A stretch of DNA of 64,000 nucleotides, taken from positions 1 to 64,000 of IMG/VR virus record IMGVR_UViG_3300027313_000002. One strand, 5' to 3'. Each line of letters opens with the position of its first letter. Within the stretch, counting starts at the first letter, position 1. This stretch comes from a virus. Below, in pieces: positions 35,438-46,403 of the stretch. A program made the translations under genes and the position numbers. The notes below the pieces were generated by a model. That model did not search any database, had not been told where the DNA came from, and saw only the letters and a list, made by a program, of their open reading frames with translations.

Positions 35438-36351
35438 TCACCCAAATGCGTAGAGGCCGAAGAAGGAACCGGACAGGTAGTAGCAGCTGGCCGGGCAGGC
35501 CAGCGACAGCGAGCTGATCGCGGCCTGGGCGGCCGGGTTGTAGAAGCCCCAGCGGATCCGGCCGTCGACCATGGCCCCGGTCCCGTTGCCCGACCCGGAC
35601 ATGCTGTAGTAGCTCTTGTTGTACGTCGCCTGGCTGTAGTTGGGCAGGAAGGCGAACCCGCCGCCGGCGTTGACCGCCGACCCGGCCAGGCTGGCCGCGA
35701 CCCGGCAGACCGGCCAGACGGTGTTCGCGGCCGAGGCGAACTGGCTGCTGGCCAGCGCCCCGGTGCCGGCCCCGCTGATGTTGGACAGGTAGAAGCTCAG
35801 GTAGCTGTAGACCGCGGTGGTATCCCCGTTGACCTGCATCAGGATGTCGTCGGTCTGGTTGTTGGTCTCGGTCAGCCGGGCCTGGATCATGATGAGCAGG
35901 TGCTTGAAGGTCGCCGGGATGGCGCTCCAGGTAACCAGGTTCGTGGTGCTGTTGGGCAGCGTGGTCTCGTTGATGGTCGTGAAGGCGCCGACCGACCAGG
36001 CGGTCGAGGGCAGGCCGTGCGGCAGCTGGGCCAGCTGGGCGATCTCGTGGGCCCGGCTCAGCGCCAGGTCCCCGGCCGTCATCTCGTGCTGCACCGTGGT
36101 GCCGGCACCCCAGGCCGAGGCCGAGGTGGTGTCCTGGGCCCGGGTGATGGTCCACGGCGTGCCCGAAGTCCCGGCCCCGGCCGTGACGTAGACGATTTCC
36201 GCGCCGCCGAGCACCAGCTTGAACGGGAACGTGGTGGGGTACCCGGACGGCGTGGTACTCAGGTACACGCTGGTCGCGGAGTTGGAGATGGCCGCTCCGG
36301 TCACGCCGGCTACGGCGACGTTGCTAAATAGTAGAAGGCGGGCGTCGTCAT
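35438..36351 (-). CDS. Minor tail protein; probable start ATG 36351 with a frame change at TTA (36325-36327)
   Basis: EIVYVTA...TITRAQDTT..HE motif and IPATFKHL domain; RBS-ATG is out of frame by a 2-nt gap at TAT-TTA. Confidence 0.75.
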
Positions 36352-36381: not shown

Positions 36382-36951
36382 TTACTGCAAGGAGCGCCGC
36401 CTGCCTCGCACGATGTAGGAGATACTGGCCTGAGACACCCCGTAAAGGGCAGCCAAGCTCTCCTGCGAGACACCACCAGCCTGGTAAACGGCAATGAGCG
36501 CGCGAGCCTGGTCATCGGTGAGCTTGGCCCGTCCTGCCTCAATGCCAACCCGCACAGGAGGCAGGTGACCGCGCCCCCGCGAATGCATTTCCTTGGTGTT
36601 CTCAGCTGCTGTGCCCTCATGGACATGCTCAGGGTTCTCGGCATTGCAACAGAGCCCGAAGTCACAGCCGTGCAGGGCCTGCGGCTCAGGCCAGTGACCG
36701 TGCACAAAATAGAACGCTGCACGGTGGGCAAGAACAAACTGCCGCCGCTCGCCTCCCCAGAAGAACCTGCCGTAGTACAGGTCCGGCATGCCCTTGGCAA
36801 GCGCCTTGGCACCCGTCCAGGGCCAGCACTCGTCATAGCCCCGGCGGTCCACCTTGGGCCAGAAGCGAACCTCAGGCGATACAACGCCACTGCCCTTTGG
36901 CCGTCCTGCTGACTGGTGCCGTCGGCACCGGCACCCTGACTCGCAACGCAT
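36382..36951 (-). CDS. HNH endonuclease with C-terminal HTH
   Basis: RFWPKVD...CWPWTG...AHR...LHGCD...CCN..H...GT..EN; AKLT...QESLAALYGVSQ. Confidence 0.92.
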   Translation of the reverse strand: MRCESGCRCRRHQSAGRPKGSGVVSPEVRFWPKVDRRGYDECWPWTGAKALAKGMPDLYYGRFFWGGERRQFVLAHRAAFYFVHGHWPEPQALHGCDFGLCCNAENPEHVHEGTAAENTKEMHSRGRGHLPPVRVGIEAGRAKLTDDQARALIAVYQAGGVSQESLAALYGVSQASISYIVRGRRRSLQ

Positions 36952-36976: not shown

Positions 36977-37834
36977 CTATAGGTAGCAATCGTTCCATTT
37001 CAGCGTGGCTGTCCCAGCGGAGACCTGGATGATGTTGGCTCCGGGCAAGAGACAGAGCCACATGCGGCTGCCGCTGTGGGTGAGCCCGGCCGCCTGGTTG
37101 ATGCCCGCGGTGTCGGTGACGGTGAAGTTGAGGATGTCGACGGTGACCGGGTAGACAGCCCCGGCCGCGCTGAAGCTGAACGCCACCCCGCACGTGGTGT
37201 TGGTGACGGTGGCCGCGGCGCTCAGCTGGACGGTGAAGGCGCTGACCGCACTGGGGTACCCCTCGCCCACGATGCCCTCGCCCAGGGCCGTGCACGTGGT
37301 GCTGGCGCCCGTGCAGGCCGCGGTCTGCTGCGCGCCGTAGAAGTACGGGTCGGACAGGAGGAAGTCGACGCTGAACGCGGCCGAGGTACGGCCGTTCATG
37401 GTCAGGTCCATGGAGCCGGCGATCTCGGCCATGGCCGTGCTGGTGACCAGCTTGGGAGTGCCCTGGGTGAGGTACCAGTTGCGCTGCAGCTGGCCCTGCA
37501 CCGACCCGGTGGGGTTGCGGTACCACAGCATCTTGCGCAGCTGCTGCAGGTTGTCGTTGAAGGCCAGCCGCTCGTCCGCACTCGGGTAGGACTGCGAGGC
37601 GCTGGCCTGGCCGCCGGCCCACATGGCCAGGGTGAGGGTGCGCTCGTCCGGGTATTTCTGCCGGAAGCCCTGGCCCGCGCGGTAGGCCGCCGCGTAGTCC
37701 GAGCCGCGCAACGTGGGCAGCGCGAACCGGCTGCCGCCGAAGGTGGCGATGTTCATGTAGGACTGGTTGAGCGCGGTGCCGTTCCAGTACCACAGCTCGG
37801 CCGGGGAGTAGGCGGCAGCCGACGGCGCTGGCAT
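36977..37834 (-). CDS. Distal tail protein (Dit)
   Basis: Follows the tape measure gene; ERTLTL...SDPYFYG...LLPGAN motif. Confidence 0.85.
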   Translation of the reverse strand: MPAPSAAAYSPAELWYWNGTALNQSYMNIATFGGSRFALPTLRGSDYAAAYRAGQGFRQKYPDERTLTLAMWAGGQASASQSYPSADERLAFNDNLQQLRKMLWYRNPTGSVQGQLQRNWYLTQGTPKLVTSTAMAEIAGSMDLTMNGRTSAAFSVDFLLSDPYFYGAQQTAACTGASTTCTALGEGIVGEGYPSAVSAFTVQLSAAATVTNTTCGVAFSFSAAGAVYPVTVDILNFTVTDTAGINQAAGLTHSGSRMWLCLLPGANIIQVSAGTATLKWNDCYL

Positions 37835-40800
37835 AACGCGAGCCCCCTTCCGGCCAGGAACGCGAGGCGGTTGGACGCCCGGGTGATCGACTGGCTGGGC
37901 TGCTCGGCCGTGGGGTTGTTGATGACCATGCTCTCGACGTTCAGGGCCGGCCCCCTGGTCGCCGCAGCGGCATCGGACAGGGTGCGCGGCTGCTCACCGC
38001 CGAACCCCGGGGCGGACAGCTTGCGGGCCATCACGGGACTCACGCCCATCGGGCTGAAGTAGACCGGCCCGCCGAGCGCGAACATGCCGGCGACGTCGCC
38101 CAGGCCGCCGCCCGCGGCGAAGCCGTAGCCCGCGCCGGTCACCGACAGGTCGAAGACGGGCTGGCCGGGTCCGCCGACGGTGACCAGCGGGCCCAGGTTC
38201 CAGCCGATGCCGGGCGTGGTGTCCACCCGCGGCGCCGCCGGGCCCGGGCCGCCGAGGATGCCGCCGGCGATGCCCGCGCCGGCGTACAGCTCGGACCAGG
38301 CCTGCTGCGCCACGTCCTTGGTAATCCCCAGGTGCCCCAGCTGGGTCCGCATGGCGCTCCACTGGCCGGGCAGGTAACGGAGCGCATCCCACCCGCTGGG
38401 CGGCACGGTGCCCGGCTTCCACCCGGACGGCATCTTCTTCGGCCAGGTATGGCCCAGCTCGGCGCCCCACGCGCTGCGCGGCGCTCCGGGCACGGTGTAC
38501 AGCCAGTTCCACATCGTGCTCAGCTGCTTGCCGAAGTTCGTCCACATGCCCGGCGTGATGACGTCGGGCCGCACGAAGTCCTCGGACAGCGCCATGTACG
38601 CCCCGGCCGGGACGGCGCCGATGCCGATGGCCCTGTTCTGCTGGGCCTGGAGGATGTCGATGTCGGCCTGCCATTGCAGCGCGCCCGGTGTCTGCGCGAT
38701 AGCCTTCGGCAGCCTGGCATTCTTGAGCGCGGTCCACGCCTGCGCCTCAGCCTGCACCGCCTGCGGCAGCGTGGTCTTGGAGTAGTTCAGCCACGTGGTC
38801 TCGGCGTCCAGGCCGCCGGGGAAGACCGTGCCGCCCGCGGCGTAGCTCAGGCCCGAGGCGATCAGCGCGCTGGCCACCGGGTCCGACGCCCACGGCTGGT
38901 ACCCGGACGCGTTGTACAGGGAGACGGCCGCCCGGGTGTTGTTGGCCGCGTTGAGCAGGTTCCCGAAGGCGCCGTTCTGGCTGATGCCGCTGGTCGGGGT
39001 GATCTGGTACAGGCCCCAGCCGGTCAGGCCGGGCGGCTGGCCCTGCTGGATGGCGCCCGCGTTGTCCCCGGACTCGGCGTAGGCGATCCGGGCCATGTTC
39101 TGTGCCGCGGAGGCCCGGCCGCCCTCCTGGACCCACAGCGAGGCGATCTGCGCCGCCGTCATGAGACCGCCGGTCGGGCCGGCCGCAGCGGCGGAGGCGA
39201 AGGCGCCGAGCGCAGACTGGCTGGCGATGGCCTGGCTCTTAGCCTTGGAGTCCTGGCCGGTCATGAAGTTGTCGATGCCCAGCTTCAGGTTATGGGCCAG
39301 CGCCTGCAGGATGGCCCCGGGCATGGTGTCGCCGGGCACCACGCCGAACAGCGGCGCGACGGTGTGGTCCCAGACGGCGTTGAAGATGGCCGTGGCGCCC
39401 TGCCGGGCCAGCTTCAGCAGCTCGCCGGCACCGCCGCTGACCAGGTTCGCCAGCGGCTTGATGAGGCTGCCCAGCCCGGTGCCTGCCGAGTCCAGCAGCC
39501 CTTCCACGGTCTGCCAGACCTGGCCGATGCCGCCGAGCGCGGCGCTGATGACGTTCTGCCCGCCGGGGCCGCCGAGCCGCACGCCGACGACGAAATTGTC
39601 GTTGCTGATGGGCGTCTCGGTCACGCCCAGGGCGGTGTCGTAGGCGCTGATGAGGGTGCCGGACGCGGCGGCCATGCCGGTATGGCCGATGCCGCCCCAC
39701 TTGGACGGGTCGGGCGAGGCCCCGGTGAAGAACAGGATGTCGCCGGCCTGGATCTGGCTGCGGTTGGTGAAGGTGTAGTCCGAGTCCCAGGCCGAGAACC
39801 AGTCGGCTTCGAGGTTGGCGATGGCCGAGGACTGCGGGATGGGCACCCCAGCCGCGTTGGCGGCGGACCACACCAGGCTGGAACAGTCGTACGGCGGGCG
39901 CCCCCACCGGTTGGCCTCGCTGTAGGCATCCCCCCGGCGGGCCAGCATGTAGCTGAGCATGGCCTGCTCGATCTGGCCGCCCGAGGCGTACGGGGCCGGG
40001 GACCAGTCCCTCGGCGCGTTGCCCCGGCCGGGCATGTGCGGCGGGTTGCCGAGCCCGCCGCCGGCCGCGAACCCCTGCGAGGCCATGGTGCCGCGGGACC
40101 CGGCGCCGAGCCACTGGTCCGCCTGGTTGAGGCCGTTCAGGAAGTCCGGCCCGAACGCCCGGTCCAGCGCCATCCGGGCCGGCTGGCGGAGCATGTACTC
40201 CCCGCCCATGGCCAGGATGGGCGTGCCGTCCACCGCGCTGGCCCCGGGCACCGACCCGCCGCCCGGGTAGACCGGGCCCCCGGCTGCCCTGATGAGCGGC
40301 ACATCAGGGATGGACAGGCCGCCCGGCAGGTGCTTCAGGATGACGTTGTTAATCGCGTTGATCGTGCCATTGATGGGGTTCTGGATTACCCAGTTAATGG
40401 CAGCCTTGAAGGCGGTCTCGATGTCATTGCCGAGGCCGGAGATCATGCCGCCGACGGGTATGGCGATCTTGGACTGGAACCAGCCGCGGAACTGGTCGAA
40501 CCACTGCGGCACCAGCACGGTGAACAGGTGCGACATCCCGCCCACGATGTCGTTATTGAAGAAGCGCCAGCTGTCGGCCCAGGCGATGGCGGACCCGGAC
40601 ACGAAGCTGTTAAGCCAGGCCGGCACGCTGACGGTGAAGAAGTGCGCCACGTTGCTGACCAGGGTGCTGCTGAAGAACCGCCAGGCCTGGGCCCAGGCGA
40701 TGCTGGCCCCGTTCACGAAGCCGGCGAACCAGGCGGGCACGGAGGCGGTGAAGAAGTGCGCGACATTGGCCACGATGGCGCTGTCGAACCAGTGCCAGGC

Positions 40801-43800
40801 GGCGAAGAACCCGTCATGCGCCGCCTTCGGGATGGTGACGTTGAAGAAGCCCGGGGCGGTGACGGTGAGGAAGTGCGTGAGCGGGCCGGCGAAGTCCTGC
40901 TGGAAGTGCTCGTAGCCGATCGACCAGCCGTGCGCGATGGCATTGGGCAGCAAGGTGCTGAAGAACCGGCTCACCGGGTCGCCGAAGCCGGAGGAGAAAT
41001 TGGCCGCCGCGGTGTTCCACGTGCCCTTGGTGCCGAGCGCGAAGCTCCGGGCCCAGCCCGGCATCAGGAGCATGAACAGCTCCTCGACCTTGGTCACGAA
41101 CCCGCCGTTGAGCGAGTCCCAGATGCTGGCGCCCCACCCGGCGATGGCATGCGGCAGCGTGCGGTTGAAGAAGCCCGGCATCGTGACCGTGAGGAAATTG
41201 GTGACCGGGCTGCCGAACCCGCGCATGAAGTTCTCGTAGATGGTGCTCCAGGCGAAGGCGATCCCGTGCGGCAGGGACACGTTGAACCAGTTGGGGATCT
41301 TGTTGACCAGCACCTCGGTCAGCGGGCCGGCGAAATTGCGCTGGAAGTCCTCGTAGGCGACGCTCCAGCCATGCGCGGTGGCATTCGGGATGGTGTCGGT
41401 GAAGAAGTGCGGCAGGGTGGTCCCGAAGAACCGGCCCATCTGGTCGATGTTGGAGAAGAAATCGTCTTTCCGCTGGCCCCAGAACCCGGACTGGGCCAGC
41501 TTGTCTGAGGCATCAGCGGACTTGGCCAGGCCCTGCTGCAGCGACTGCATGGGCTTCTCGCCCTTGGACACCTCGGCCCACAGCCTGTCGGCCTGGACCT
41601 GGGTGAAGCCCATGGACTTCATCCAGGCCTCGAACTGGGTCTTGGCGTCCTTGGCGTTCCCGCTGGCGCTGATCAGGATCTCGGCGACCTGCCTGCCTGC
41701 CTGGATGGTCGGCTGGGCGCTCGGCCCGAACTTGGCCAGGTCGGTGGCGAAGCCGTTGAAGGCGCCCTGGCCGCCGAGGGCGTTGAAAGTCGCGGTGGAC
41801 ATGGCCGGGACCAGGTCCTGCTGCAAGGTCGTGGTGAGCTTGGCGGCATCCTGGTCCAGCTGGGACAGCGGCTTGTCAGCCGTGGCCATCTTGTTCTGCA
41901 GGTCCTGCGTGGCCGCCGCCGCGCCGAGCGGGCCGATCCACCTGGTCAGCTGCTTCCAGGTGGTGATCGACGGGTCGGCCTCCTGGACCAGGGCGAGGAT
42001 GGCGCTGCGCGCGGTCGAGCTGTTGCCGGCCAGCGGGACGAGCATGGCGGCCAGGTCCCTGGTCGCCCCGGTGAGCAGCGCCGTGCCGGCCGCGCCGGAC
42101 TGGGTGACCGCGGACTGGCTGCGCAGCCAGTCGAGCACCTGCCCGGCCTGCGGGATGAGCTGGATGAACGAGGACCGCAGCGTCAGGCTCTGGCTGTTCA
42201 GCCCGGACATGGAGGCGCCCGCGGCAGCCGCGTTGGTGTGGGTGGTGTTGAGGTTCTGCTCCAGGGTGACGAAGGTGGACTCGCCGCCGGTTATCAGGGT
42301 CAGCCACTGGTCCCAGGCGGTGTTCAGCGCCTGCATCTGCTTGAGCTGGTCGGAGTTCATGACCAGCTGCACCGACACGTCGCCCTGCAGCTGGGTGAGC
42401 CCCTGGCCCATCGCGGCGTACCCGGCGACCAGCCCCTTGACCTGCTGCATGTCGGCGGCCCACACCTTGCCCTGGGCGGTGAACAGGTCGCTGGTCTTGA
42501 CCCCGGCGGTCTGCAGCAGCTGCAGCGCGCCGGGCATGTTCACCCCGTAGGCCTTCTGGATTTCCCCGGTGTGCACCAGCTCGGCCTGCAGCTGGCCGGA
42601 CAGCTGAGCATGCTGGGCGCTCAGCTCGCCGACCTCGGTCGAGTTGAGATGCTGGGCGTTGGTCAGCTGGACCGTGGTGGCGGCCAGGTCCGAGACGGTC
42701 TTGCCGATGACGGTGAGCATGGACTGCTGGCCCAGCCCCTGGTTCATCGTGTCGATCCACTGCTGGGCGGCGTCCTTGGCGGTGGCCACCTTGTAGGCGA
42801 AATAGCCGATGGCTGCGACGAACGCCGCGATCAGCGCGACGTCGAGCACGGAGGCCAGCAGGGCCAGCGCCCCGGACAGGCTGAAGGTCGCCCCGGCGGC
42901 GGCGGTCTCCGCCACCGCCAGCTCCCCGCCGGACATCGCCGCCGCCTCCTCGGCGATGGCCGCCTGCCCGGCCGAGGCCGCGACTGCCTCCTGGGCCGGG
43001 GCCAGGATCCCGAGGCTGACCAGGAGATCCCGGATCCGGGTGGGGATGGCGCCGAACCCGGCCGCGATGTCGGTGAGGATGGCCCGGAACCGCTGCAGCC
43101 CGCTGGCGCCCTCGGGCAGCAGGCCCAGCGCGCTGGTGGCCGCGGAGATGCCGCCGACCAGCAGGGCCAGCGACCGGACCATGTTGAGCACGACGGTGAC
43201 GGCCAGGCCGCCCCACAGCTGGATGCCGTGCAGGCCGAGGACGAACACGGTCAGCCACGCGCCGACCTGGGTGTGCATGAGGTCGCCCAGCAGGCCGAGC
43301 AGCTTGGACAGCACCGCGGTGACGGCCACCAGGTCCTCGGCGATGTGAGTCTTCTGGGCCGCGTCGAACAGGCCGGAGATGAACCGGCCGACGTTCAGCG
43401 CGATCTGGCCGAGGTTCTTCAGGACCGACTCACCATCGGCCAGGAAGCGCTGGATGGCCGGCCCGGCCGCGTTGAAGTCCACCACGAGGCGGGCCAGGAA
43501 CCGGTCCAGCACGGCTCCGGTGCTGAGCGCTAGCTGGCCGATCAGGCTCATCTTCCCGCTCGCCGCGCCGAGGGCATCCCCGAACAGCTGCCAGACCTGC
43601 GGCCGGATCTTGCTAGCCAGGTTGTCGAAGAAGTTGCCCAGCGGGTAGATGGCCTGCCCGGTGGCGGTGGAAGCCGCCCAGACCGCCTTCATCCGGTCGC
43701 TGATCCGGCCCAGGGTGTCCTGGGCGAGGTAGGCGACGAGCAGGAACGAGCCGATGCCGGCCGCCAGGGTGCCGATGGCAGTGGTCAGGATGATGGCGGT

Positions 43801-45374
43801 CTCGACCACGGCATCCAGGGCGAAGTGCCAGGCGTGGATAGAGCCGATGAACCCGGTCGTGCCGAGCAGGCCGGCGAAGACCAGGACCTTGGCGTTCAGG
43901 AACCCCCAGCCGTTGGCCGCGTTCACCAGCCACGGGGCCATCCAGCCGAGCGCGGAGCCCAGGGTGCGGCCCGTATCCGCGGTGTCCTTGTTGGCCGCGG
44001 CGGCCTCCCGGGCAGCCTGCGCCTGGGCCATGGTGGCCATCCAGATAAGCCGGGCCTTGGCCGTCAGGTCGTCCTCGGCCGCGGCGGCGGCCCACAGCTC
44101 GTCCGCCATGTCCTTGGTGCTCTTGGCCGCATCGTCGGCGGCGGCGGCCTGGTTGCGCAGCGCGCTGGCGGTCGCGTTGATGTCGGCCGGCTCCTCGGGC
44201 GGCGGGGCCGCGCCCGCAGCCGGCGGAGGGCCCCCGCCTCCCCCGCCTGCCGCGCCGCCCATGCCCAGCGTGGGCCCGATGGTCGGCGCGAACCGCTCGG
44301 CCATGGCCGCCTTCAGCCGGGCCATGAACGCGTTCAGCTCCTCCATCGCCGCGGTGTCGTCGAACTCGGCGGCGAAGGCGTACCGCTCCCGGACCGCGCG
44401 CATCAGCTCGTCCATCCACTGGCTCAGCTGCACCTGGGCGTGGCTGGTGTCGACGTCGATGACCTCCAGTTCCTCCAGCCTGGCGGGCAGGAACCTGTAG
44501 GGCTCGATGGCCTTGGACGGCTCGGTGCCCGGGTAGGTGGCCGGCCCGTAGCCGCCCTGGCCGGGCGGCAGCGCGGCTCGCAGCGGCGGCGGCAGGACGG
44601 CGGGCCGGAACGTCTCCGCGCTCGGCAGGGCTGCCAGCGCGGCCCGGTAGACAGCCAGCTGGGCCATGGCCCTGGTGGCATCGAACTGCGCCTGGGTGAC
44701 CACGATGTCCGGCAGGCCGGACAGCGCGGCGGCGTAGCTGGCCGCGGCGCTGATGCCCTCGCCGAGCTGGCCGATGGACTCGTGCGTGCCGTGCACCGCA
44801 TCCTGGTAGGCCAGCATCGCCTGGGTCTCGGCTGTGATGGCGGTGGTCCGCGCCCGGATGGCGGCGCCCTCCTGGGAGTAGGCGGTGATCTCCTTCTGCA
44901 GGTACGTCAGCCACTGATCCGGCGTGAGATAGCCGCCAAACCGGGCCCTGTTCTCCTGCAGGGTCAGCGTGAGCATCTGCATCCGCCAGGCGGCGTACTG
45001 CTGCGGGGTGGTGAAGCCGAGGTCCCGGGCACGGTTGAGCAGCTCCTGCAGCTGGGTCTCGCGCTGCAGGTCGGCCAGGTGCTGGGTCATGTCGGACCGG
45101 CCGCCGTACAGCAGCTGCGGGTTGGTCGCCTTGGCCGCCGCGCCCAGCTGGTTCAGCGCGGTGGTCTCCTCGCGCATGGCGGCCACGTCGGCCTTGCGGG
45201 CCGCTGCCGCCGCGGTCGCGCCGGCCACCTCGGCCGCCGACTCGGCCTTGGCCGCCTCGGCCATGCCCTGCATTTCCTTCTTGGCGGCCTCGGCGTCCCG
45301 CATCAGGTCACCGAAGTCGGCAATGGCCTTAACTTGTAGATGACATACCAGTACTCGGGTCCCTCATAGGCCAT
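37753..45374 (-). CDS. Tape measure protein with NlpC/P60 and lysozyme-like domains; true start probably ATG 45374 via a 5-nt bypass
   Basis: >2500 aa Ala-rich helical protein; aromatic 11-residue-type repeats; PYDCSSLV...GHTGM (~39600-39960); AESG...GLYQI...QPW (~38880-39160). Confidence 0.92.
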
Positions 45375-45384
45375 CTACGAACTC

Positions 45385-45888
45385 TCACCCCCCTCCGTGC
45401 CCGTTACCGCCGGCGCCCGGCGGCGGGCCGCCGAACTTCGTCATGAACGCCTCGAAGCTGCCCTCGGCGTTAGCCGCCTCCACGCCGCGCTCCGGATCCG
45501 CCTGGACCTTCCCGAACCGCGGGTCGTCCTCGATCCGGTCGGCCACCTTCGGCCCGCGGATGCGGTCCAGCTCGGCCTCCCGGGGATCCTGGCCGCCCAT
45601 GATGTCGAGGGCCTGGGCCATCTCGACCAGCGGGTTGCGCCCGCCGTGCCGGTCCGGGTCGACCTGGGCCTGCGCCCCGATGAACGTGCACACCGTCTTC
45701 ACCTGCCATTCGGCCAGGCGCAGCCGGGCTACGCTGTCCCGTTCCCGGCGGGCGCTGATGGCCTCCGCGATCTGCCTGAGCCGGCAGAGCGGGAGGCCGA
45801 GGATGTCAGCGTCGCGCCATCCGTACTCGGAGCTGATGAGGTCGAAGGCGGTGGCGAAGGCTCCTGCGAGGCCAGCTGCTCGGGGCCC
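45385..45888 (-). CDS. Tail assembly chaperone, second (-1) frame
   Basis: FDLISSEYGW.D..IL.LP..R motif; no own start; overlaps the first chaperone ORF in the -1 frame. Confidence 0.7.
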   Translation of the reverse strand, partial: GPRAAGLAGAFATAFDLISSEYGWRDADILGLPLCRLRQIAEAISARRERDSVARLRLAEWQVKTVCTFIGAQAQVDPDRHGGRNPLVEMAQALDIMGGQDPREAELDRIRGPKVADRIEDDPRFGKVQADPERGVEAANAEGSFEAFMTKFGGPPPGAGGNGHGGG

Positions 45889-46403
45889 GGCTCCGGTTCC
45901 GGCGGCTCCTTGTCCTGCCCGGTCCGGCGGAACAGGTCCATCATGGCCTCCAGCCGTTTTCCCAGGGCCTGCAGCTCCGGCGCCTCCTGCCGCACGATGA
46001 CCTCGATGAGGTCCAGCGTGTCGCCCAGTTCCGGGTTGAACAGCGCCTCGTTGAACCCCTCCCAGGCGGCGGCGTTGTCTTCCTTCTCCTGCTTGGTCAG
46101 CTGCGAGTCCGGCTTGTCGGCCAGGCCCGCGGGCTTGCACATGGACTGCAGGAACGTGATGGCCTCGGACTCGGCGTCGGGGATGCTCATCAGCACGAGC
46201 ATCAGGAACCGCTCGGTGAACTGCTCCGGCTCGTCGCGGAAGTTCAGCCGGGTCAGCGCGGGCCCGGCGCCGTGGGTGAGCACCCGCAGCAGCCGGAAGA
46301 ACTGCCTGGTCCTGAGCCTGACGACCTCGACGGGGAATCCGGTGGACAGCTTGACGGTGACAGGCTGCGGGTCGAGTCGCTCCAGCTCGCTCTCGTCCGG
46401 CAT
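45729..46403 (-). CDS. Tail assembly chaperone
   Basis: Between tail tube and tape measure genes; Ser-rich overlapping tail. Confidence 0.8.
   Translation of the reverse strand: MPDESELERLDPQPVTVKLSTGFPVEVVRLRTRQFFRLLRVLTHGAGPALTRLNFRDEPEQFTERFLMLVLMSIPDAESEAITFLQSMCKPAGLADKPDSQLTKQEKEDNAAAWEGFNEALFNPELGDTLDLIEVIVRQEAPELQALGKRLEAMMDLFRRTGQDKEPPEPEPGPEQLASQEPSPPPSTSSAPSTDGATLTSSASRSAGSGRSRRPSAPAGNGTA

What the first reader, a model, noticed from the sequence alone, without database searches (positions are those of the whole stretch)
45303..45374. Tape measure gene appears to need a TTA-triggered ribosomal bypass (AAG-TT-AAG matched codons)
Seen: an ATG with RBS at 45374 reads MAYEGPEYWYVIYK, then meets TTA (45332-45330). 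The take-off codon AAG (45335-45333) is repeated 5 nt later (45330-45328) in the tape measure frame, so a 5-nt hop gives ...YVIYK-AIADFGDLMRDAE. Without the hop, the short ORF ends in a TGA overlapping ATG 45303. Established: TTA is the rare bldA-tRNA-dependent codon of filamentous actinomycetes, and UUA-associated matched-codon bypassing has been proposed for the Streptomyces phage phiHau3 terminase. Inference: production of an essential tail protein senses Leu-tRNA(UUA) availability, either by bypass or by TTA-gated coupling.
Basis: partly seen in the sequence, partly recalled or inferred. Interest (0 to 1): 0.9.

Follow-up and report, generated by a model that had tools for sequence, protein, structure and literature searches.

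The report
TTA-led ribosome hop in tape-measure gene
The tail tape measure gene of this uncultured soil actinophage is broken after codon 14 by five extra bases that begin with the almost unused codon TTA. Comparison with about 20 related phages indicates that ribosomes hop over them, a decoding trick published so far only for a few Streptomyces phage terminase genes.

Summary
On the minus strand, ATG 45374 reads MAYEGPEYWYVIYK, then TTA (45332-45330), then a stop. The 2516-codon tape measure (TMP) frame is open from 45363. AAG (45335-45333) recurs at 45330-45328.

- **Homologues:** many TMPs read YVIYK-AIADFGDLMRDA without a break, which is exactly the 5-nt hop product.
- **Gapped relatives:** 10 other distinct relatives carry 4-15 nt gaps at five sites within the first 21 codons. 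Of 16 gaps in 11 alleles, 15 open on TTA and 13 have an identical or synonymous take-off and landing codon.
- **Selection:** the peptide upstream of the gaps is still conserved (409 synonymous versus 122 nonsynonymous codon differences).
- **Assemblies:** contigs from four soil runs show the same sequence with no indel.
- **Other genes:** TTA-led breaks also occur in a tail-fibre-like gene (window 36327) and in a relative's portal gene.
- **Codon usage:** about 100,000 codons from three relatives hold no internal TTA, and four relatives' arrays of 33-37 tRNA genes lack tRNA-Leu(UAA).
- **Nuclease link:** 8 of 11 gapped alleles, and 0 of 10 ungapped ones, have an Endonuclease VII or HNH gene or remnant just upstream. 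The window does not.

Best reading: a phiHau3-type UUA-triggered bypass. The insert probably originated as a homing-endonuclease immunity mark; a bldA-sensing role is untested. This scan found the same design before in at least 26 other genomes.

The parts
45372..45374 (-). Start codon (ATG) of the tape measure gene
   Evidence: It lies 11 nt after the chaperone stop. It is homologous to the ATG/GTG that opens (M/V)AYEGPEYW in relatives, where GGAGGTGA precedes it.
45333..45374 (-). Coding segment 1, codons 1-14 (MAYEGPEYWYVIYK)
   Evidence: Identical to the first 14 residues of P0003/P0004. It is under purifying selection in gapped alleles.
45333..45335 (-). Take-off codon AAG (Lys14)
   Evidence: It is the last codon that aligns with homologues in the incoming frame.
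45330..45332 (-). TTA in the A site at take-off (the slow or undecoded codon). TAA lies in the +1 frame at 45331-45329.
   Evidence: TTA is otherwise not used as an internal codon.
45328..45332 (-). The 5 nt skipped in the hop (TTAAG), which are extra relative to contiguous homologues
   Evidence: Frameshift-aware alignment needs exactly a 5-nt gap here. Contigs of four runs hold it.
45328..45330 (-). Landing codon AAG, identical to the take-off codon
   Evidence: The same design appears in relatives.
37753..45327 (-). Coding segment 2 of the tape measure gene. It resumes at GCC 45327-45325 (AIADFGDLMRDAE...) and runs to the stop at 37755-37753.
   Evidence: ORF. Amidase_5 and NlpC/P60 domains. 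42 homologues of 1400-3400 aa. A tail assembly chaperone lies upstream.
45301..45303 (-). ATG of Met21, the start that ORF callers pick. It overlaps the TGA (45305-45303) that ends the 0-frame short ORF.
   Evidence: Met21 is invariant in the homologue alignment.
37834..37836 (-). TTA at the position where homologues have the tape measure stop codon. It overlaps ATG 37834 of the next gene.
   Evidence: Homologues end ..NRLAFLAGRG-x-x-stop. G002 and G004 have GTC TGA TG, whereas the window, G001 and G005 have TTA TG.
36325..36351 (-). Second TTA-led break: ATG 36351 MTTPAFYY, TTA 36327-36325, then 2 extra nt (TT) before AGC AAC GTC of the tail-fibre-like gene
   Evidence: G002, G003 and G004 read ..R[YF]Y-SN[VT]AV contiguously, and G001 has the same TT break. 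phrog_38058 tail fiber.
45385..46140 (-). Tail assembly chaperone gene directly upstream of the tape measure gene, with no endonuclease gene between them
   Evidence: phrog_33493. Homologous chaperones in all relatives.
36385..36951 (-). HTH protein with a weak HNH_3 match (possible homing endonuclease), immediately upstream of the second TTA break
   Evidence: Pfam HTH_3 E 1.7e-5; HNH_3 E 0.007, below the cut-off.

Best explanation
The tape measure protein is made from two out-of-frame pieces by a short translational bypass.

**Proposed steps (inferred from sequence comparison)**
1. Ribosomes start at ATG 45374 and translate 14 codons.
2. They then stall with peptidyl-tRNA-Lys on AAG (45335-45333) and UUA in the A site. 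UUA is rare or undecoded here, and UAA lies in the overlapping +1 frame.
3. The peptidyl-tRNA releases the mRNA, the mRNA slips 5 nt, and the tRNA re-pairs with the identical AAG (45330-45328).
4. Decoding resumes at GCC, giving ...YVIYK-AIADFGDLMRDAE... as in uninterrupted homologues.
5. Ribosomes that do decode UUA, or fail to hop, terminate at TGA 45305.

**Shown**
- The 5 nt are an insertion relative to homologues.
- The same TTA-plus-matched-codon design recurs at several sites and in several genes of the clade.
- The upstream peptide stays under protein-level selection.
- TTA is not otherwise used as an internal codon.

**Inferred**
- The hop itself and its efficiency.
- The origin of the insert. 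Most likely it began as, or descends from, an immunity insert in the target site of a homing endonuclease. Such endonucleases sit just upstream of this gene in relatives, as with T4 gene 60 and mobA. UUA-provoked bypass would be what makes the insert tolerable.
- A secondary effect: lowering the output of a low-copy virion protein, or tying it to tRNA-Leu(UAA) supply.
For: - **Exact hop product in homologues:** P0003-P0009, P0012, P0015, P0016 and loci L003, L007, L009, L019, L027-L029, L035 and L036 read (M/V)AYEGPEYWYVIYKA[IV][AG]DFGDLMRDA without a break.
- **Recurrent design:** 11 of about 22 distinct 5' ends are gapped, with 16 gaps at five sites (after W9, V11, K14, G/A17, G20). Fifteen start with TTA and one with AGA. 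Take-off and landing codons are identical in 10 and synonymous in 3.
- **Selection:** codons 2-20 of gapped alleles show 409 synonymous versus 122 nonsynonymous pairwise codon differences, compared with 118 versus 54 in ungapped alleles.
- **Same grammar in other genes:** a tail-fibre-like gene in the window and G001, and the portal gene of G001 at two sites, one with the gap GGC TTAACCT GGT.
- **Codon usage:** no bona fide internal in-frame TTA in G000 or in about 99,600 homology-supported codons of G001-G003.
- **tRNA sets:** four relatives carry 33-37 tRNA genes including Leu-CAG, GAG and CAA but no Leu-UAA. The window's record shows 36 tRNA genes and no Leu-UAA, though its array is cut by the contig end.
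- **Real sequence, live population:** identical in contigs of four runs, and held by 24 soil runs from 2016-2018.
- **Precedent:** UUA-led 7-10 nt gaps in phiHau3, StrepC.1 and S. catenulae terminase genes, a junction peptide seen by mass spectrometry, and a +1-frame stop after UUA that doubled recoding (PMC10732093).
- **Nuclease link:** an Endonuclease_7 or HNH gene or remnant lies directly upstream in 8 of 11 gapped and 0 of 10 ungapped alleles (Fisher p = 0.001, not corrected for relatedness).
Against: - There is no protein or RNA evidence for this phage, so the hop is inferred from sequence comparison only.
- Met21 (ATG 45303) is invariant. A protein starting there would lack only 20 of about 2500 residues and might still work.
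- Three of 16 gaps (L006 AAG TTAG, L008 GTT TTAGGCC, L010 TGG..TGT) and the 2-nt TT break lack a matched landing codon, so matched-codon re-pairing is not the whole rule.
- The window itself has no endonuclease gene beside the gap.
- The host, and whether it has a regulated or any tRNA-Leu(UAA), is unknown.
- The predicted hairpin 5' of the take-off codon is no better than shuffled sequence (z = -1.25).
Confidence: 0.75

Rival explanations
1. No recoding occurs. The functional tape measure protein starts at ATG 45303 (MRDAE...). The 23-codon upstream ORF is a leader peptide whose translation, paused at TTA and ending at TGA overlapping the ATG, merely couples or gates initiation.
For: TGA 45305-45303 overlaps ATG 45303. 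Met21 is invariant. Gene callers start many homologues at MRDA. A uORF with UUA next to the main start is described for Streptomyces adpA (PMC10732093). In G001 and G002 the upstream endonuclease ORF ends TTA TGA across the tape measure GTG start.
Against: In other gapped alleles the 0-frame stop has no fixed relation to Met21. With two gaps, the middle segment (YVIYKAIG) is in a third frame yet still conserved. The 3.4:1 ratio of synonymous to nonsynonymous differences in codons 2-20 of gapped alleles shows that the pieces are translated as this peptide. A free 14-residue peptide identical to the N-terminus of the uninterrupted protein is an unlikely product.
Confidence: 0.12
2. Recoding occurs, but as a +2 (or -1) frameshift at the hungry TTA rather than as a matched-codon hop. 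The product would be YK-K-AIADF or YK-V-K-AIADF, with one or two extra residues.
For: The 2-nt TT break in the tail-fibre-like gene and the 4-nt and 7-nt gaps of L006 and L008 have no matched landing codon, so short shifts without re-pairing must be possible in this system.
Against: Homologues have no extra residue between K14 and A15. The exact AAG repeat here, and the identical or synonymous codon pairs in 13 of 16 gaps, are unexplained by simple frameshifting. AAG-TTA is not a slippery sequence. Antonov et al. argue the same way for phiHau3.
Confidence: 0.08
3. The gene is simply broken, either in a defective phage or through an assembly artefact, and no full-length protein is made.
For: The record is a metagenomic contig that CheckV estimates at 53% complete. 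No expression data are available.
Against: The same sequence occurs in independently built contigs of four runs, and 24 soil runs over two years hold it. Half of all distinct relatives have equivalent gaps with one grammar, including 98-100% complete genomes. Selection on the upstream peptide is retained.
Confidence: 0.04

Closest known systems
UUA-led coding gaps in the large terminase genes of Streptomyces phage phiHau3 (two 10-nt blocks), prophage StrepC.1 and an S. catenulae prophage (7 nt): Smith et al. 2013 J Bacteriol; Antonov et al. 2023 RNA Biol (PMC10732093)
   Same: - A short frame-breaking insert whose first codon is UUA.
- Flanks that are adjacent in uninterrupted homologues.
- A matched landing codon.
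- A phage genome otherwise free of UUA.
- Take-off often on Gly or Trp codons (KGWG-UUA in phiHau3; W-TTA and G-TTA in relatives here).
- A +1-frame stop after UUA, which raised recoding in their assay and occurs naturally here (UUAA or UUAG in most gaps).
   Different: - The gene is the tape measure gene, not the terminase gene.
- The gap is only 5 nt.
- The site is within the first 15 codons.
- The phage is a roughly 150-kb tRNA-rich phage of unknown host, and no integrase was looked for, so the lysis/lysogeny sensor rationale was not examined.
- The clade has many sites in several genes, versus 3 of 100 terminase genes.
- Relatives link the gaps to Endonuclease VII/HNH genes, which is not reported for phiHau3.
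Phage T4 gene 60 50-nt bypass with the mobA homing-endonuclease cassette (from my own knowledge: Bonocora et al. 2011; also Manning and Atkins 2022 preprint)
   Same: - Matched take-off and landing codons.
- A non-decodable codon in the A site at take-off.
- The insert sits beside a free-standing homing endonuclease gene in relatives, which suggests a role as an immunity insert.
   Different: - 5 nt rather than 50 nt.
- A sense codon (UUA) rather than UAG.
- No evident nascent-peptide signal or take-off hairpin.
- No endonuclease gene beside the gap in this window.
Short +5/+6 hops and hungry-codon bypassing in E. coli (Weiss et al. 1987; Gallant and Lindsley; cited in PMC10732093)
   Same: [quoted passage not shown] A +5 hop is exactly the geometry seen here.
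   Different: Those were low-level events on synthetic or starved constructs. Here the event is required for a virion protein and is conserved across a phage clade.
Programmed bypass elements (byps) of Magnusiomyces capitatus mitochondria (Lang et al. 2014, cited)
   Same: Many short inserts in several genes of one genome lineage, with matched take-off and landing codons and likely mobility.
   Different: Byps are 27-55 nt, mitochondrial, and not triggered by one specific rare codon.
UUA at the 3' end of the adpA upstream ORF in Streptomyces (PMC10732093)
   Same: A UUA sits a few nucleotides before, or across, the start codon of the next ORF. This resembles the TTATG junctions seen here at the tape measure 3' end and elsewhere.
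   Different: That is a chromosomal regulatory uORF. No bypass is proposed there.

Membership tests
UUA-triggered translational bypass (phiHau3 type) | A short insert, not a multiple of 3 or containing a stop, relative to homologues in which the flanks are adjacent | tested here: met
   There is a 5-nt insert. Contiguous YVIYK-AIADF occurs in more than 15 homologues.
UUA-triggered translational bypass (phiHau3 type) | UUA is the first codon of the insert in the incoming frame | tested here: met
   TTA at 45332-45330 directly follows codon 14. The same holds in 15 of 16 family gaps.
UUA-triggered translational bypass (phiHau3 type) | A landing codon cognate to the take-off codon immediately before the resume codon | tested here: met
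   AAG and AAG.
UUA-triggered translational bypass (phiHau3 type) | UUA otherwise avoided in the phage's genes | tested here: met
   The only in-frame sense TTAs in G000 are three: two at frame breaks (45332, 36327) and one at the tape measure stop position (37836). None is internal in about 99,600 codons of G001-G003.
UUA-triggered translational bypass (phiHau3 type) | A joined protein is produced, and this depends on slow decoding of UUA | not testable with these tools
   This needs mass spectrometry or reporters. No RNA or protein data are available.
UUA-triggered translational bypass (phiHau3 type) | A host with limiting, bldA-type tRNA-Leu(UAA) (Streptomyces) | tested here: inconclusive
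   The host is unknown. There was no match in 185,579 species genomes. The nearest cultured portal is from Microbacterium phage Magritte at 48.6% identity. The phage tRNA sets lack Leu-UAA.
T4 gene 60 / mobA bypass cassette | A homing endonuclease gene adjacent to the insert | tested here: not met
   In the window the chaperone gene ends 11 nt before the tape measure ATG. The feature is met in 8 of 11 gapped relatives.
T4 gene 60 / mobA bypass cassette | A gap of about 50 nt, a stop codon after take-off, a take-off hairpin and a nascent-peptide signal | tested here: not met
   The gap is 5 nt and the 0-frame codon is a sense codon. The fold is not better than shuffles.
Tape measure protein of siphoviruses | A very long protein encoded after the tail assembly chaperone genes and before the distal tail genes, often with cell-wall hydrolase domains | tested here: met
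   About 2500 aa, with Amidase_5 and NlpC/P60 domains. The chaperone phrog_33493 is upstream and a tail-fibre-like gene downstream. Homologues carry tail lysozyme or SLT domains.

The most novel reading that the evidence does not exclude
In this clade of roughly 150-kb actinophages, UUA is never decoded as an ordinary sense codon during infection. Instead it acts as a general end-of-decoding signal.

- It replaces stop codons at gene ends. Examples are the tape measure gene in three lineages, and a radical-SAM gene and another gene in all three complete relatives, with no canonical stop nearby.
- It opens every coding gap.
- Homing-endonuclease-driven inserts in low-copy virion genes (tape measure, portal, tail fibre) exploit it.

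If so, UUA would be effectively unassigned or stop-like in the host-phage system, and ribosome hopping would be a routine part of gene expression there.
Probability: 0.3. Interest if true: 0.85.

Novelty: new member of a known kind. Interest (0 to 1): 0.66.

Why it matters
UUA-triggered bypassing has rested on three terminase genes and limited experiments. Its authors note that it has largely escaped attention.

This case adds a different essential gene with the shortest gap yet (5 nt), set in a family with at least a dozen differently built gaps that obey one grammar. That is strong comparative evidence that ribosomes of high-GC actinobacteria routinely hop at UUA.

It also offers several things that can be tested or used:
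- It gives concrete constructs for testing the rules (matched codon, +1-frame stop, gap length).
- It links the inserts to homing endonucleases, as in T4 gene 60.
- It warns annotators that genes called from an internal Met in such phages may be split by coding gaps.

Tried and rejected
- **Phage database:** blastn and tblastn of the region against 50,697 phage records gave no match.
- **Species genomes:** the genome-contig scan found no relative, so there is no prophage or host clue.
- As a result, DNA upstream of most of the MRDA-starting proteins could not be read; P0013 is covered because it lies on the G004/L022 contig.
- **RNA runs:** The look-up of sequencing runs listed no RNA holder. 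Only contigs, not raw reads, could be laid.
- **Matched-codon scan of G000:** it also flagged 35934, 2176, 64974 and 54019. In these the TTA is out of the coding frame or intergenic, so they were rejected.
- **Hairpin:** a predicted 9-bp hairpin pairing the start region with codons 11-13 is not better than shuffled sequence (z = -1.25). It was not pursued.
- **tmRNA:** none was found in G000-G003, and Rfam found only tRNAs in the three tRNA-array loci searched (L048-L050).
- **First all-ORF tblastn:** it timed out and was repeated on sense-signature ORFs only. Breaks whose upstream piece is shorter than about 20 aa are missed by that method.
- **Frame-break candidates:** most of those were ordinary gene boundaries.
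- **Apparent internal TTAs:** those were wrong-frame or antisense alignments.
- **Complex prediction and structure tools:** not used, because they do not bear on the question.

Full report
**Observation**

Read on the minus strand, the window has the stop of a tail assembly chaperone gene (TGA 45387-45385), followed 11 nt later by ATG 45374. This frame reads MAYEGPEYWYVIYK, then TTA (45332-45330), then RPLPTSVT, and stops at TGA 45305-45303.

The long ORF 37753..45303 (2516 aa) is in another frame. That frame is open back to 45363 and reads ..VKAIADFGDLMRDAE. AAG at 45335-45333 is repeated at 45330-45328, so a 5-nt forward move of the P-site tRNA joins YVIYK to AIADF.

The protein is a tape measure protein:
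- It is about 2500 aa long and has Amidase_5 and NlpC/P60 domains.
- A chaperone gene (phrog_33493) lies upstream and a tail-fibre-like gene downstream.
- It has 42 homologues of 1400-3400 aa, some with tail-lysozyme or SLT domains.

The window belongs to a 77-kb IMG/VR record that CheckV estimates at 53% complete. Relatives are 149-152 kb, and one has terminal repeats.

**The decisive comparison**

The N-termini of the homologues fall into two classes. One class reads (M/V)AYEGPEYWYVIYKA[IV][AG]DFGDLMRDA without a break, which is exactly the hop product. The other class was called by gene finders from MRDA.

I fetched DNA for about 30 loci and read the 5' ends in three frames.
- Ungapped loci have GGAGGTGA, a start codon and the contiguous peptide.
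- Gapped loci encode the same peptide in two or three frames, separated by short inserts.

A frameshift-aware alignment gave 11 gapped and about 11 ungapped distinct alleles. The gapped alleles hold 16 gaps of 4-15 nt at five sites: after W9, V11, K14, G/A17 and G20.

When each gap is written with the take-off codon first, 15 of 16 begin with TTA. The exception begins with AGA, another rare codon, and contains an in-frame TGA.

The codon just before the resume point compares with the take-off codon as follows:
- Identical in 10 gaps (TGG/TGG, GGT/GGT, GCT/GCT, AAG/AAG).
- Synonymous in 3 (GGT/GGC, GGA/GGT).
- Imperfect in 3.

Given a TTA trinucleotide frequency of 0.0015 on the coding strand, this cannot be chance. 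Most gaps read TTAA or TTAG, which places a stop in the +1 frame (10 of 12 gap families by my count, p about 0.02). Antonov et al. found that a +1-frame stop after UUA doubled recoding.

**The broken pieces are translated**

Across gapped alleles, codons 2-20 differ by 409 synonymous and 122 nonsynonymous codon pairs. Ungapped alleles show 118 and 54. If the protein simply started at Met21, these codons would not be translated as this peptide. Protein-level selection therefore continues across the gaps, including on the middle segment of two-gap alleles, which sits in a third frame.

**The insert is real**

Contigs from four soil metagenome runs cover 45150-45550 with no difference and no indel, and 24 runs from 2016-2018 hold the stretch. 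These are contigs, possibly from one campaign, so minority alleles cannot be excluded.

**TTA elsewhere**

- In G000 the only in-frame TTAs in real genes are three. Two are at frame breaks (45332 and 36327). The third is 37836, where homologues have the tape measure stop codon and which overlaps the ATG of the next gene.
- The break at 36327 was another first-reader note, and I confirmed it. Three relatives read ..RYY-SNVAV contiguously, while the window and G001 have two extra T's that create TTA after the Tyr codon. No matched landing codon exists there.
- I fetched three whole relatives and compared their ORFs by tblastn. The portal gene (PF06074) of G001 has two TTA-led gaps. One is GGC TTAACCT GGT, the same 7 nt as a tape measure gap in L024.
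- In about 99,600 homology-supported codons, TTA occurs 40 times and never as a bona fide internal codon. Its positions resemble those of stop codons.
- Several genes end their homology exactly at a TTA, conserved in three genomes. A radical-SAM gene and another gene have no canonical stop nearby. I cannot explain how such ribosomes are released, and no tmRNA gene was found.
- Four relatives carry 33-37 tRNA genes, including Leu-CAG, GAG and CAA and several readers of rare A-ending codons, but no Leu-UAA. The window's record shows 36 tRNA genes and no Leu-UAA, but its array is cut by the contig end.

**Origin of the inserts**

- In G001, G002, L004, L006 and L010, an Endonuclease VII-family gene (PF02945, E about 1e-13) lies between the chaperone and the tape measure gene. 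In G001 and G002 it ends TTA TGA across the tape measure start codon.
- L022 keeps a C-terminal remnant of that gene.
- L024 has an HNH gene (PF01844), and L008 has an HNH-like stretch.
- No ungapped allele has any of these.

The counts are 8 of 11 gapped versus 0 of 10 ungapped (Fisher p = 0.001). This is not corrected for relatedness, but at least three different nuclease insertions are involved.

This parallels T4 gene 60 and mobA, where the insert protects the target site of the neighbouring homing endonuclease. The highly conserved first 25 codons would make a good nuclease target. The many A/T-ending synonymous codons in gapped alleles fit selection for target-site change.

The window, G003 and L023 have a gap but no nuclease gene. 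That is the expected state of an immune allele after loss of the nuclease gene, or after co-conversion. The window's gap (TTAAG) sits at the same site as L006's (TTAG), and L006 does have the nuclease gene. In the window, an HTH protein with a weak HNH_3 match lies right before the second break.

**Comparison with what is known**

The closest published system is the UUA-led gaps in the phiHau3, StrepC.1 and S. catenulae terminase genes (Smith et al. 2013; Antonov et al. 2023, PMC10732093). Full-text searches found no paper describing such gaps in tape measure genes.

The geometry here (+5, matched codon, slow A-site codon) matches the short hops of Weiss et al. 1987. The defining sequence features of the phiHau3 type are all met. 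The joined product and its dependence on tRNA supply could not be tested, and the host is unknown.

The bldA-sensor purpose remains an inference. An immunity-insert origin, with bypass as the tolerance mechanism and perhaps reduced output of a low-copy protein as a by-product, has more support from the relatives.

**Verdict**

This is a real and well-supported new instance of a known but little-documented kind of recoding. This scan has found the same design before in at least 26 other genomes, including a tape measure gene.

My confidence is 0.75 that a hop joins the two pieces. The main rival is initiation at Met21 (0.12).

Noticed in passing
window 37834-37836 (minus strand): TTA occupies the position of the tape measure stop codon and overlaps the ATG of the next gene (GCG TTA TG). 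G002 and G004 have GTC TGA TG there, while G001 and G005 also have TTA. Read as Leu, it would add 27 out-of-frame residues. A matching GCG lies 11 nt downstream in the next gene's frame, which may be chance or may allow a fusion hop.
   Followed up: partly
window 36325-36351 (minus strand): Second TTA-led break: two extra T's after codon 8 of a tail-fibre-like gene. G001 shares it, and G002, G003 and G004 are contiguous. No matched landing codon exists, so a +2 shift, or a -1 shift with one extra residue, would be needed.
   Followed up: yes
window 36385-36951 (minus strand): A 189-aa HTH protein with a sub-threshold HNH_3 match sits between the distal tail gene and the broken tail-fibre-like gene. 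It may be a homing endonuclease. A related HTH gene in G003 ends with TTA 8 nt before the next gene's ATG.
   Followed up: partly
G000 72291-77200 (beyond the window) and L048-L051: Arrays of 33-37 tRNA genes cover all amino acids and several rare A-ending codons (Arg-UCU, Lys-UUU, Glu-UUC, Gln-UUG, and Ile-UAU in G002). None carries tRNA-Leu(UAA) or tRNA-Leu(UAG).
   Followed up: yes
G001 about 149,670-149,810 (minus strand; loci L071/L072): The portal gene of a 100%-complete relative has two TTA-led gaps within its first 70 codons (ACC TTAAGCC ACG and GGC TTAACCT GGT). The second uses the same 7 nt as the tape measure gap of L024.
   Followed up: yes
G002 46278, G001 19493, G003 77847; G002 127436, G001 88478, G003 11895: A radical-SAM/B12-binding gene of about 955 aa, and another gene, end their conserved coding exactly at a TTA in all three genomes. 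No canonical stop follows for 24-70 codons, and in G001 the frame runs into the next gene. TTA behaves like a stop.
   Followed up: partly
G001 about 126,780-126,860 and G002 about 88,150-88,230 (L005, L018): The Endonuclease VII-type gene inserted upstream of the tape measure gene ends ...TGT GGC TTA TGA, overlapping the GTG start. No Shine-Dalgarno sequence lies directly before that GTG, so tape measure initiation there may depend on coupling to the nuclease ORF.
   Followed up: no
window 45385-46403 (minus strand): Two overlapping ORFs in different frames (45729-46403 and 45385-46140) lie upstream of the tape measure gene. This is the usual layout of tail assembly chaperones G and G-T, which are joined by a -1 frameshift. 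No slippery site was looked for.
   Followed up: no
L005, L010, L018, L022, L024 (first 20 tape measure codons): Gapped alleles use many A/T-ending synonymous codons (TAT, GGA, CCA, GAA, GTA, ATT, AAA) in a genome with about 95% GC at third positions. This is consistent with selection to change a nuclease target site without changing the protein.
   Followed up: no
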